Source: Escherichia phage NHEP29. From it: a DNA stretch of 64,000 nucleotides. Where the stretch lies: the sequence record PQ511150.1. One strand, written 5' to 3'. Shown in pieces: positions 18,386 to 19,656 of this stretch. Position numbers and translations under genes: made by a program. Numbering within the stretch: the first letter of the stretch is position 1; each line of letters begins with the position of its first letter. A model generated the notes under the pieces. It ran no database searches. It was not told the origin of the DNA and was given only the letters and a program-made list of their open reading frames with translations.

Positions 18386-19201
18386 TTAACAATTTACAGA
18401 CCAAGTCCATTTGGACGAATCTAAAGGAAAGTTTTGAATCGTCCACCATGGCTGCATATTGGTTGGTCCTGGGGTTCGCCAAGTATACGGATTCGACGGA
18501 CCGCCAATTTGATTAGGCCATGCACCTGGACTTGTTGCACCAGATTCTTTAAGCAAATCCGCCAATCGTTTTAAAAGGTCTTCACGATCTGAATCTGAAT
18601 TATTCTCGGGTGGAACCAAACGAGATTCAATATCATCCCACGTGTGTACACGTTGTGCAGTGCGAGGAATATCATCACGTTCACCACGAGCCAACCAATA
18701 AATCGGTACATTAAGAATTTCTGCCGCATGGTCACAATGATGAGCTAAATCGTCAACGTAACAAATCACGTTATATTTTGTTTTAGCTAGTTCGAATAAT
18801 TGTTCCTTTGAAGAATCATGGCCACACATCATTACTTCAGAGAAAGCGCCAGGGAACAAAGCATTCAAATTAAATTGTCTATTCAATCGAGCATCAATTG
18901 AATCACCCAGCGCCGTCACGGCTACAAAATTATAGTCTTCTTTTAGTTTATTGATAACTCGAAGAGCATCCGAATAAGGCGCTAAGTAACGAATAAAATC
19001 AGAGCGATTATATTTTTCTATTAATTGTTTACCGAGGTTATCGTCGGTATTGAATAGTTTACCAGGAGAAATAAATTTTTCGTCCTGAATCATTTTTAAA
19101 ATATGTTCTAATGGAAGATTATATTTTTGGGCAAAATAAGGAAGTCCAGATTGCCAGCTTAAACATACACCATCAATATCAGTCAAAATAGTAGGCTTCA
19201 T
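18386..19201 (-). CDS. HAD-superfamily hydrolase-like protein with Trp-rich C-terminus
   Basis: 271 aa; N-terminal motif ILTDIDGV (DxDG[TV] of HAD phosphatases); C-terminal tail rich in W/P/G. Confidence 0.5.
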   Translation of the reverse strand: MKPTILTDIDGVCLSWQSGLPYFAQKYNLPLEHILKMIQDEKFISPGKLFNTDDNLGKQLIEKYNRSDFIRYLAPYSDALRVINKLKEDYNFVAVTALGDSIDARLNRQFNLNALFPGAFSEVMMCGHDSSKEQLFELAKTKYNVICYVDDLAHHCDHAAEILNVPIYWLARGERDDIPRTAQRVHTWDDIESRLVPPENNSDSDREDLLKRLADLLKESGATSPGAWPNQIGGPSNPYTWRTPGPTNMQPWWTIQNFPLDSSKWTWSVNC

Positions 19202-19656
19202 AAAGAGTCTCTTAATAGGTTTAACACATCAATAAATTCAGCTTCAGTTAGTATTGTATCATCTTTTGTTAGACCACTAGCCATGCTGTGCTTCAAAATT
19301 TTTCCTTTAGAGGCTTGTAAGGCATCACGAAACCCCTTGTTTTGGATCGCTGCTTCAAAATATGCATTTGTATATAATTCTTTCCACGCTTCAGAGTATC
19401 TTGAAAATGGAACTCCTAACCAGAAGAGAGTCCCATGGTCCTGAGCTCTTGCATAAGACCTTCCAGCTTGTTGGGCGGCAAGCCCGGATAACCCAAATAT
19501 ACGTTTTTGTTGTTCAACATTTCTCACCTTACATCCTTGGAGAAATCCTTCAAGACCTCCGAATTGAATACCATCCATAACGAAAGGCCACCGGGCAAAA
19601 TTACTTAATGCACATGACGGCCACTTAAAATTGCTTCTTATTTCTAATTCAGACAT
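19198..19656 (-). CDS. NADAR / YbiA-like (DUF1768) domain protein
   Basis: Motif CALSNFARWPFVMDGIQFGGLEGFLQGCK parallels E. coli YbiA GDFSNFAAWPIKVDGKTWPTSEHYFQAQKF; first ATG at 19656 (track start 19665 is GTG). Confidence 0.6.
   Translation of the reverse strand: MSELEIRSNFKWPSCALSNFARWPFVMDGIQFGGLEGFLQGCKVRNVEQQKRIFGLSGLAAQQAGRSYARAQDHGTLFWLGVPFSRYSEAWKELYTNAYFEAAIQNKGFRDALQASKGKILKHSMASGLTKDDTILTEAEFIDVLNLLRDSL

What the first reader, a model, noticed from the sequence alone, without database searches (positions are those of the whole stretch)
18386..19656. NADAR/YbiA-like protein paired with a HAD-like hydrolase, downstream of the Alt ADP-ribosyltransferase
The 152-aa ORF carries the SNFxxWPF...DG...E signature of the NADAR (DUF1768/YbiA) family, members of which have been reported to hydrolyse ADP-ribose adducts. 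Its start overlaps the stop of a HAD-like ORF (DIDGV motif) that has an unusual Trp/Pro-rich tail. Both lie three genes downstream of alt. This looks like a candidate ADP-ribose or NAD-metabolite processing module, possibly countering host ADP-ribosylating defence (DarT-like) or tuning phage-driven ADP-ribosylation.
Basis: partly seen in the sequence, partly recalled or inferred. Interest (0 to 1): 0.7.

Follow-up and report, generated by a model that had tools for sequence, protein, structure and literature searches.

The report
AdfN anti-DarT enzyme plus HAD phosphatase
The 152-aa gene is this T4-like phage's intact copy of AdfN, an already characterised enzyme that strips ADP-ribose off phage DNA to defeat the bacterial DarTG1 defence. 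The overlapping neighbour is an uncharacterised nucleotidase-like phosphatase that published data show is not needed for that job.

Summary
Two minus-strand ORFs overlap by 4 nt (ATGA), and all quoted motifs are present. The window is a Mosigvirus-type T4-like phage, and the ORFs are genes 30.3 and 30.2.

Gene 30.3 is 95% identical to T4 gp30.3, which is AdfN. AdfN is a NADAR DNA ADP-ribosylglycohydrolase shown experimentally to be necessary and sufficient against DarTG1 (Nat Commun 2025;16:1598; Toxins 2024). E36, K43, H123 and the C-terminal helix are intact here. The frameshift that inactivates RB69's copy is absent. My own model hits only the three solved NADAR structures.

The "module" idea fails.
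- The two genes lie 54-69 kb apart in at least 10 T4-like genomes.
- They are almost never linked outside T4-like phages (1 of 80 loci).
- In T4 transposon sequencing on DarTG1, 30.2 is neutral (log2FC -0.12) while 30.3 is lost (-7.25).
- alt is also neutral and lies downstream of them, not upstream.

Verdict: the NADAR/anti-DarT reading is correct but already published. The HAD substrate is the only open question.

The parts
19198..19656 (-). Gene 30.3 = adfN (152 aa), a NADAR-fold DNA (guanine) ADP-ribosylglycohydrolase. Catalytic codons: E36 at 19549-19551, K43 at 19528-19530, and the phage-type H123 at 19288-19290. The C-terminal helix (aa 138-151) is intact.
   Evidence: Pfam PF08010 at E=1.7e-67. 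95% identity to T4 gp30.3 with E36, K43 and H123 conserved. These residues are invariant in 91 family members. AF2 model pLDDT 93. Foldseek top three hits are the three NADAR structures. The RB69 inactivating T insertion is absent. The function of the T4 orthologue is published.
18617..19201 (-). Gene 30.2, catalytic core (aa 1-195): a HAD-superfamily phosphatase with an alpha-helical C1-type cap, NT5C-like. Motif I is D8/D10 (19178-19180 and 19172-19174), motif II is T96, motif III is K132, and motif IV is D150-D151.
18386..18616 (-). Gene 30.2, C-terminal extension (aa 196-271 plus the stop codon). It has one predicted helix (aa 203-219) followed by a disordered Trp/Pro-rich tail that carries a conserved TWRTPG motif.
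   Evidence: pLDDT is 43-59 for aa 220-271. The core is far better conserved than the tail against T4: overall identity is 72%, and nearly all the differences and every indel fall in the tail. Tail length ranges from 0 to 148 aa across the family. The motif W[RK]xPG occurs in 15 of 58 long tails against 1.1 expected.
19198..19201 (-). ATGA stop/start overlap between 30.3 and 30.2.
   Evidence: Read directly from the sequence. The same kind of junction is common throughout this gene cluster.
19649..19867 (-). Gene 30.4 (72 aa), immediately upstream of adfN. Its stop overlaps the adfN start by 8 nt. It is the only neighbour with a DarTG1 phenotype in T4, which is probably a polar or translational-coupling effect on adfN.
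   Evidence: phrog_2042 at E=2e-34. In HIDEN-SEQ Data S6, 30.4 has log2FC -1.79 and adjusted p 0.014. It is one of only 2 significant genes.

Best explanation
These are two adjacent but functionally independent early genes of a T4-like (Mosigvirus-type) phage.

(1) Gene 30.3 is adfN. AdfN is a single-domain NADAR enzyme that hydrolyses the bond between ADP-ribose and the guanine base in DNA. When the host DarT1 toxin ADP-ribosylates guanines in replicating phage DNA, AdfN removes the adducts so replication can continue. This lets the phage grow on DarTG1-carrying hosts. The window's copy has the catalytic Glu36 and Lys43, the phage-type His123 and the full C-terminal helix. Unlike its relative RB69, this phage is therefore predicted to resist DarTG1. 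The chemistry and phenotype are shown for the 95%-identical T4 protein and inferred here by orthology.

(2) Gene 30.2 is a Mg2+-dependent HAD phosphomonoesterase. Asp8 is the nucleophile and Asp10 the acid/base. It has a helical cap typical of small-molecule substrates and is most closely related to the 5'(3')-deoxyribonucleotidase (NT5C) family. It most likely dephosphorylates (deoxy)nucleoside monophosphates and so acts in nucleotide-pool management. Its disordered Trp/Pro-rich tail carries short conserved motifs that probably dock it onto a partner protein. The fold and catalytic motifs are shown. The substrate and the partner are inferred.

(3) The HAD enzyme is not part of the anti-DarT mechanism. 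De-ADP-ribosylation of guanine restores the base and releases ADP-ribose, so no phosphomonoester is produced for a HAD phosphatase to act on.
For: Identity of the region:
- The region is 98.4% identical at the nucleotide level to Escherichia phage AV115, a Mosigvirus.
- It is syntenic with T4 alt-alt.1-30-30.1-30.2-30.3-30.4.

gp30.3:
- 95% identical to T4 gp30.3, full length, with E36, K43 and H123 present.
- These residues plus SNF and Q40 are invariant in 91 homologues and in 80 genomic homologues.
- The AF2 model (pLDDT 93) matches only YbiA 2b3w (E=1.5e-4, TM 0.69), PnNADAR 8bau and G. lovleyi NADAR 8bat.
- The family profile hits YbiA at E=0.005.

Published experiments on T4 AdfN:
- It is necessary and sufficient against DarTG1.
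- E36A and K43A mutants are dead.
- Purified protein removes ADP-ribose from DNA.
- RB69 is sensitive because a T insertion truncates 15 residues (PMC11825919).
- In vitro it acts on guanine-ADPr but not thymidine-ADPr (PMC11125620).
- The window lacks the RB69 insertion.

gp30.2:
- HAD motifs I-IV are conserved in 98 homologues.
- The core is modelled confidently and the tail is disordered.
- NT5C is the top specific Pfam family among close relatives (23 of 98) and distant relatives (27 of 118 at E<=1e-3, best 4e-10).
- One relative, P0346, passes the NT5C gathering score.
- Viral structural neighbours are annotated as 5' nucleotidases.

Independence of the two genes:
- Only 36 of 78 loci centred on 30.2, and 19 of 80 centred on 30.3, have the partner within 4 kb.
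- The genes are 54-69 kb apart in at least 10 complete T4-like genomes.
- Only 1 of 80 bacterial or MAG loci with this NADAR type has the HAD nearby, and that contig is 178 kb with a near-orthologous gp30.2 and so is probably itself a T4-like phage.
- In T4 HIDEN-SEQ on DarTG1, 30.3 has log2FC -7.25 (q=0) and 30.2 has log2FC -0.12 (p=0.61). Only 2 genes are significant, 30.3 and 30.4.
- 30.2 tolerates insertions at 72 of 72 TA sites.
- RB69 carries a 99%-identical gp30.2 yet is DarTG1-sensitive.
Against: - No enzyme from this particular phage has been assayed. The AdfN function is assigned by orthology.
- The window's gp30.2 does not itself reach the NT5C Pfam threshold. Its only hit is a sub-threshold HAD_2 match at E=0.02. 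The NT5C link is transitive, and fold scores do not separate NT5C from other capped HADs. The nucleotide substrate is therefore a weak inference.
- The two genes do co-occur in nearly all T4-like phages (1438 and 1510 phage records with the same genus distribution). They are adjacent in about half of the loci sampled, so a subtle or redundant cooperation cannot be ruled out.
- The authors of the AdfN paper leave open that another T-even factor may be needed for full AdfN activity.
- Tn-seq neutrality was measured in T4 under one condition only.
Confidence: 0.85

Rival explanations
1. gp30.2 and AdfN work together, with the HAD enzyme processing an ADP-ribose or NAD-derived product or activating AdfN. 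The overlapping pair would then be a two-enzyme counter-defence unit, possibly the 'other T-even factor' that makes AdfN work best during T-even infection.
For: The ATGA overlap suggests co-translation. The genes are adjacent in Tequatrovirus, Mosigvirus and several other T4-like genera (36 of 78 loci). They co-occur in nearly all T4-like phages. The AdfN paper leaves room for an extra phage factor.
Against: - In T4 Tn-seq on DarTG1, 30.2 has log2FC -0.12 (p=0.61) against -7.25 for 30.3.
- Ectopic AdfN alone rescues RB69, and purified AdfN alone is active on DNA.
- RB69 has a 99%-identical gp30.2 yet is sensitive.
- The genes are 54-69 kb apart in at least 10 T4-like genomes.
- Only 1 of 80 non-T4 loci links them.
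- The NADAR reaction yields no phosphomonoester. This is an inference from the published chemistry.
- Overlapping junctions are generic in this cluster.
Confidence: 0.06
2. gp30.2 is a nucleic-acid end-healing phosphatase, like the HAD 3'-phosphatase domain of T4 polynucleotide kinase. It would work with the neighbouring DNA ligase (gene 30) rather than on free nucleotides.
Against: - gp30.2 has a helical cap inserted after motif I (helices aa 16-86). By established HAD classification, such a cap usually restricts the site to small substrates, whereas PNK-type phosphatases are capless.
- NT5C is the recurrent Pfam relative.
- The phage already encodes PseT in the same region.
Confidence: 0.07
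3. AdfN's main role is to reverse or tune the phage's own ADP-ribosylation by Alt, ModA or ModB, rather than to counter host DarT.
For: Proximity to alt (three genes away). Both proteins deal with ADP-ribose.
Against: - Alt-family enzymes modify protein side chains (Pfam ADPrib_exo_Tox). Tested NADARs act on guanine-ADPr in DNA.
- adfN is dispensable on K-12 and becomes essential only with DarTG1.
- alt, modA and modB show no DarTG1 phenotype where read. alt has log2FC -0.01.
- In many T4-like genomes the NADAR sits far from the alt/30 region.
Confidence: 0.03

Closest known systems
T4 AdfN (gp30.3), anti-DarT factor NADAR (Nat Commun 2025;16:1598, PMC11825919; Toxins 2024, PMC11125620)
   Same: 95% amino-acid identity over the same 152 residues. 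E36, K43 and H123 are conserved, the C-terminal helix is the same, and the gene sits in the same position between 30.4 and 30.2.
   Different: Seven conservative substitutions. The genomic background is Mosigvirus (RB69-like) rather than Tequatrovirus. RB69, the type member of that genus, carries a frameshifted and inactive copy, whereas this phage's copy is intact.
DarG1 / DarT1-associated NADAR antitoxins (BC4488 family; G. lovleyi NADAR, PDB 8bat)
   Same: Same fold and the same reaction on guanine-ADPr DNA, according to the literature.
   Different: The third catalytic residue is His in the phage group and Asp in DarT-linked NADARs. AdfN has no N-terminal extension and no linked DarT toxin. 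T4 AdfN does not rescue DarT1 toxicity in uninfected cells.
E. coli YbiA (PDB 2b3w; Pfam NADAR PF08719; TIGR02464 riboflavin-intermediate N-glycosidase)
   Same: It is the best structural match (E=1.5e-4, TM 0.69). It shares the SNF...E..Q..K motif block.
   Different: Only 16% identity. YbiA has Glu in the last strand where AdfN has His. The window protein does not reach the PF08719 or TIGR02464 thresholds. YbiA has a housekeeping riboflavin-related role.
NT5C family, 5'(3')-deoxyribonucleotidases (Pfam PF06941; human cdN 6g2n, mouse mdN 2jao, S. epidermidis 3bwv)
   Different: The window's gp30.2 is itself below the family threshold, with about 16-19% identity to solved members. It has a 76-aa disordered Trp/Pro-rich tail that NT5C enzymes lack. 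Its substrate is untested.
T4 polynucleotide kinase 3'-phosphatase domain (PseT; PDB 1ltq, 5uj0)
   Same: The same HAD catalytic core, and another HAD phosphatase encoded by T4-like phages.

Membership tests
NADAR superfamily (YbiA fold) | [quoted passage not shown] | tested here: met
   An AF2 model with pLDDT 93. The Foldseek top three hits are the three solved NADARs, 2b3w, 8bau and 8bat, and no other hit has E<1.
NADAR superfamily (YbiA fold) | Catalytic Glu and Lys in the E-x(6)-K block following the SNF motif. In T4 AdfN these are E36 and K43, and both are essential. | tested here: met
   S18-N19-F20, E36, Q40 and K43 are present. They are invariant in 91 homologues and conserved in 80 more: N19, E36, Q40 and K43 in all 80, S18 in 75 and F20 in 70. 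They align to YbiA.
Phage gp30.3 / AdfN subgroup of NADARs (Pfam PF08010) | Histidine in the last strand, where other NADARs have Glu or Asp, plus a score above the PF08010 gathering threshold. | tested here: met
   H123 is present and invariant. PF08010 scores 225.9 bits against a cutoff of 36. The subgroup definition is taken from PMC11125620.
Phage gp30.3 / AdfN subgroup of NADARs (Pfam PF08010) | An intact C-terminal helix. Loss of the last 15 residues inactivates the RB69 copy. | tested here: met
   The protein is full length at 152 aa, with helix 138-151 modelled. The RB69 T insertion is absent.
Phage gp30.3 / AdfN subgroup of NADARs (Pfam PF08010) | Hydrolysis of guanine-linked ADP-ribose on DNA, and protection from DarTG1. 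| not testable with these tools
   This is shown for the 95%-identical T4 protein and inferred here by orthology.
HAD superfamily phosphatases | A Rossmann-like HAD core fold. | tested here: met
HAD superfamily phosphatases | The four catalytic motifs: I DxDx[TV], II S/T, III K, IV DD. | tested here: met
   D8-I-D10-G-V12, T96, K132 and D150-D151 are invariant or nearly invariant in 98 homologues. D, D, K and D are retained in 118 distant relatives.
NT5C family (PF06941, 5'(3')-deoxyribonucleotidase) | A score above the Pfam gathering threshold of 24.8 bits. | tested here: not met
   The window protein has no NT5C hit and only HAD_2 at E=0.02. The best hit among 98 close members is E=0.002. 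I therefore do not file it as a member, only as NT5C-like.
NT5C family (PF06941, 5'(3')-deoxyribonucleotidase) | Homology traceable through intermediate sequences. | tested here: inconclusive
   27 of 118 distant gp30.2-profile hits match NT5C at E<=1e-3, the best at 4e-10. P0346 matches the gp30.2 profile at E=1.5e-16 and passes NT5C at 36.8 bits. However, generic HAD models also hit 12 and 8 members.
NT5C family (PF06941, 5'(3')-deoxyribonucleotidase) | dNMP/NMP phosphatase activity. | not testable with these tools
   No paper in the searched library mentions gp30.2.
Hypothesised NADAR-HAD functional module | Gene linkage conserved across lineages. | tested here: not met
   36 of 78 and 19 of 80 viral loci are linked. 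The genes are 54-69 kb apart in at least 10 T4-like genomes. Only 1 of 80 genomic loci is linked.
Hypothesised NADAR-HAD functional module | Both genes required for the same phenotype. | tested here: not met
   This rests on published T4 Tn-seq that I read here, not on an experiment of my own. On DarTG1, 30.3 has log2FC -7.25 and 30.2 has -0.12.

The most novel reading that the evidence does not exclude
gp30.2 is not a housekeeping nucleotidase. It would instead be a recruited enzyme whose variable, disordered tail docks the NT5C-like phosphatase onto a phage or host complex. The tail carries short conserved motifs: TWRTPG here, and GIEYLxxQPT, LRAYY or PMTPCDPPY in other lineages. Once docked, it would destroy a specific nucleotide, for example a defence-generated toxic or signalling nucleotide. 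That would make it a second, still unrecognised counter-defence gene sitting next to adfN in an anti-defence neighbourhood. My evidence does not exclude this reading. It shows only that DarTG1 is not the target.
Probability: 0.12. Interest if true: 0.55.

Novelty: already known. Interest (0 to 1): 0.2.

Why it matters
The main claim, a phage NADAR that counters DarT, was a correct call from raw sequence. It was published in 2023-2025 for the T4 orthologue, so nothing new is learned about mechanism.

Two small practical points follow.
- This Mosigvirus-type phage carries an intact adfN, whereas the genus type phage RB69 carries a dead one. It is therefore predicted to plate on DarTG1 hosts where RB69 does not. 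This matters for host-range prediction and phage choice.
- The neighbouring gp30.2 is present in about 1400 sequenced T4-like phages and is still uncharacterised. It can now be described as an NT5C-like HAD phosphatase with a motif-bearing disordered tail, and it can be excluded as a DarTG1 factor. That narrows the experiments needed to assign it a function.

Tried and rejected
- Single-sequence phmmer against PDB sequences found nothing for gp30.3 and only E of about 0.4-1 noise for gp30.2. The gp30.2 family profile against PDB was also non-significant.
- Direct Pfam and NCBIfam scans of gp30.2 gave only sub-threshold HAD hits.
- The promoter/terminator scan of 16.3-22.3 kb gave counts at or below the shuffle expectation, so it says nothing about operon structure.
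I rebuilt the alignment without it.
- The afdb50 fold library was unavailable, so I used BFVD instead.
- Fusion proteins containing the gp30.2-like domain (P0258, P0298, P0207, P0250) had no recognisable partner domains, so they gave no functional hint.
- I read HIDEN-SEQ supplement part 17 looking for a conditional phenotype of 30.2 in another condition, but that part did not contain the 30.2 row. I did not pursue the remaining conditions. The paper's main text never mentions 30.2.
- I considered the T4-annotated internal ORF 30.3' as a possible hidden gene and rejected it, because a stop codon interrupts it in this phage.
- Alignment A8 was built with a C-terminal fragment of the query as its first row, by my mistake. 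This affects only the residue numbering of that summary, not the member scans.
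Full report
WHAT IS THERE

All genes between 14.2 and 24.5 kb of the window are read on the minus strand. The finding's coordinates enclose two ORFs.
- A 152-aa ORF at 19198-19656, counted from the ATG.
- A 271-aa ORF at 18386-19201.

The stop of the first and the start of the second overlap as ATGA.
- SNFARWPF (residues 18-25), DG (28-29) and E36 in the short protein;
- DIDGV (8-12) in the long one;
- a tail whose last 47 residues hold 6 Trp and 8 Pro.

The region is 98.4% identical at the nucleotide level to Escherichia phage AV115, a Mosigvirus of the Tevenvirinae. 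Its gene order is that of T4: alt, alt.1, 30 (ligase), 30.1, 30.2, 30.3, 30.4. The two ORFs are therefore genes 30.3 and 30.2.

Because transcription runs from high to low coordinates, they lie upstream of alt, not downstream. Overlapping or abutting junctions are the norm in this cluster.

GENE 30.3 IS adfN

The protein matches Pfam PF08010 (Phage_30_3) at E=1.7e-67. It is 95% identical to T4 gp30.3 over the full 152 residues.

The literature shows that T4 gp30.3 has been renamed AdfN, anti-DarT factor NADAR.
- It was mapped by phage crosses and is necessary and sufficient for growth on DarTG1 hosts.
- It needs E36 and K43.
- As a purified protein it removes ADP-ribose from DNA.
- RB69 is DarTG1-sensitive because a T insertion at position 411 truncates the last 15 residues (published as Nat Commun 2025;16:1598).
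- An independent in vitro study showed activity on guanine-ADPr but not thymidine-ADPr. It defined phage NADARs by a His in the last strand, where other NADARs have Glu or Asp.
- A T4 transposon-sequencing study confirmed that 30.3 is dispensable on K-12 and indispensable on DarTG1.

I tested the membership features directly.
- E36, K43, H123 and the SNF block are present in the window copy. They are invariant in a 91-sequence family alignment.
- The profile of that alignment reaches E. coli YbiA at E=0.005.
- An AlphaFold model (pLDDT 93) matches YbiA 2b3w (E=1.5e-4, TM 0.69), Phytophthora NADAR 8bau and Geobacter NADAR 8bat, and nothing else below E=1.
- A three-way DNA alignment shows that RB69 has the extra T (ACTAACTTGAAG) and that the window, like T4, does not.

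So this Mosigvirus-type phage has an intact adfN, and it is predicted to resist DarTG1. This step is inferred by orthology and has not been measured.

GENE 30.2 IS AN NT5C-LIKE HAD PHOSPHATASE WITH A DISORDERED TAIL

No curated family claims gp30.2. Pfam gives only a sub-threshold HAD_2 hit (E=0.02), and PHROGs lists phrog_420 with unknown function. No paper in the library mentions gp30.2.

A search found 98 homologues, all from T4-like phages, ranging from 176 to 347 aa. In their alignment the four HAD catalytic motifs are conserved: D8 and D10, T96, K132, and D150-D151. So are W16, S18, Y64, N65, S67, R108, N111 and R172.

The AlphaFold model is confident for residues 1-195 (pLDDT above 90). 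It shows a helical cap between motifs I and II, one further helix (203-219), and a disordered tail.

An exhaustive profile search found 1027 clusters at E<=1e-3, mostly stand-alone proteins of 190-215 aa. Scanned against Pfam:
- NT5C is the commonest specific hit among the 98 close members (23 members);
- NT5C is also the commonest among 118 distant members (27 at E<=1e-3, best 4e-10; generic Hydrolase 12, HAD_2 8);
- one distant relative passes the NT5C gathering score.

The nearest viral predicted structures, after the orthologues, are annotated as 5' nucleotidases. The N-terminal block DxDGV(x3)-aromatic-xSGL aligns with mouse mitochondrial deoxyribonucleotidase.

I therefore call gp30.2 NT5C-like but do not file it as a member, because the window protein fails the family threshold. 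A nucleotide substrate is an inference.

The tail is optional and fast-evolving.
- Its length ranges from 0 to 148 aa, and 58 of 98 members have at least 40 aa.
- Against T4 the core is far better conserved than the tail. Overall identity is 72%, and nearly all the differences and every indel fall in the tail.
- Short motifs nevertheless persist. W[RK]xPG occurs in 15 of 58 long tails (1.1 expected from shuffles), G[IVL]EY in 16 of 58 (0.1 expected), LRAYY in 8 and PMTPCD in 10.
- These counts are not corrected for relatedness. TWRTPG is the only tail stretch conserved between T4 and the window.

This pattern is typical of docking motifs, but the partner is unknown.

ARE THE TWO GENES A MODULE?

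Four independent lines say no.

1. Linkage. Of 78 viral loci centred on 30.2, 36 have a 30.3 homologue within 4 kb. Of 80 centred on 30.3, only 19 have 30.2 nearby. In at least 10 complete T4-like genomes the two genes are 54-69 kb apart, by the contig coordinates. In 80 bacterial or MAG loci carrying the same His-type NADAR, only one has the HAD within 5 kb. That contig is 178 kb with a near-orthologous gp30.2, so it is probably a T4-like phage. Both genes are simply near-universal in T4-like phages (1438 and 1510 records, same genus distribution).

2. Genetics. The HIDEN-SEQ sheet 'resampling_Control_vs_DarTG1' lists two significant genes. Gene 30.3 has log2FC -7.25 (q=0) and 30.4 has log2FC -1.79 (q=0.014). 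Gene 30.2 has log2FC -0.12 (p=0.61) and alt has -0.01. Gene 30.2 tolerates insertions at all 72 TA sites on K-12.

3. Sufficiency. Ectopic AdfN alone rescues RB69, and purified AdfN alone is active. RB69 has a 99%-identical gp30.2 and is still sensitive.

4. Chemistry (inference). Removing ADP-ribose from guanine leaves no phosphomonoester for a HAD enzyme to act on.

The link to alt is likewise unsupported. Alt is a protein ADP-ribosyltransferase, whereas the NADARs tested act on DNA guanine adducts.

VERDICT

The NADAR/anti-DarT interpretation is right, but it was already published for a 95%-identical orthologue. The HAD call is right at superfamily level and can be sharpened to NT5C-like. 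The 'module' and alt-related parts are not supported.

Novelty: already known. The remaining open question is the substrate and partner of gp30.2. Interest is low (0.2).

Noticed in passing
window 19649-19867 (-), gene 30.4: In the published T4 Tn-seq on DarTG1, only two genes are significant. They are adfN and the small gene immediately upstream, 30.4 (log2FC -1.79, adjusted p 0.014). The 30.4 stop overlaps the adfN start by 8 nt. This is probably a polar or translational-coupling effect, but an accessory role for gp30.4 is not excluded. The paper's main text does not mention it.
   Followed up: partly
window 18386-18616 (-), the gp30.2 tail, and the tails of P0001-P0098: The disordered C-terminal tails of gp30.2 homologues vary from 0 to 148 aa. 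They nevertheless keep lineage-specific short motifs (TWRTPG, GIEYLxxQPT, LRAYY, PMTPCDPPY) far more often than shuffled tails do. This suggests docking motifs for an unknown partner. The window's tail lacks the GIEYLYNRPT block that T4 has.
   Followed up: partly
window 19293-19520 (-): The T4-annotated internal out-of-frame ORF 30.3' (75 aa) is interrupted by a stop codon after 34 codons in this phage. It is therefore probably not a real conserved gene.
   Followed up: yes
window 23520-24512 (-): A 330-aa ORF abutting dCMP deaminase (cd, 22939-23520) is annotated in the near-identical phage AV115 as a DAHP synthase (2-keto-3-deoxy-D-arabino-heptulosonate-7-phosphate synthase). T4 has cd.1 and cd.2 at this position instead. 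An aromatic-amino-acid pathway enzyme in a T4-like phage is an auxiliary metabolic gene worth a look.
   Followed up: no
proteins P0102-P0116, P0119, P0148, P0200; phage hits H76-H82: Many T4-like phages carry truncated or fused versions of 30.3. Some are 83-126 aa fragments. Others are fused to PF11097, PF06919 (gp30.7) or PF06019 (gp30.8) domains. A large group of Tequatrovirus copies match only residues 1-144. By analogy with RB69's 15-residue truncation, some of these phages may be DarTG1-sensitive.
   Followed up: no
L162-L241 (for example L214 4980-5444, a Bacteroides sp. 995-kb scaffold): The His-type (gp30.3/AdfN-type) NADAR is not confined to phages. 252 loci were found in species-representative bacterial and archaeal genomes and MAGs, and all 80 examined have E36, K43 and H123. 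In L214 the gene sits between a 125-aa ORF and an ORF that looks by eye like methionyl-tRNA synthetase (not checked with a tool), with no gp30.2-type HAD found within 5 kb. I did not determine whether these loci are chromosomal genes or prophage remnants.
   Followed up: partly
L124 2736-4456: In one 166-kb T4-like contig, a diverged gp30.2-like HAD (190 aa) lies two genes upstream of the NADAR. This is the opposite order to the window, with a 155-aa protein containing an HExxH-like motif between them. It shows that the local arrangement is fluid.
   Followed up: partly
window 21328-21507 (-): The 59-aa homologue of gene 30.9 is annotated in phage AV115 as '1,4-alpha-glucan branching enzyme, GH-13-type'. 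For a 59-residue basic protein this is almost certainly an annotation error in the public record.
   Followed up: no
window 48001-50000: This is the highest GC content (0.43 against about 0.38) and the strongest positive GC skew (+0.20) in the window. It lies inside the plus-strand block at 40-50 kb. I did not examine it.
   Followed up: no
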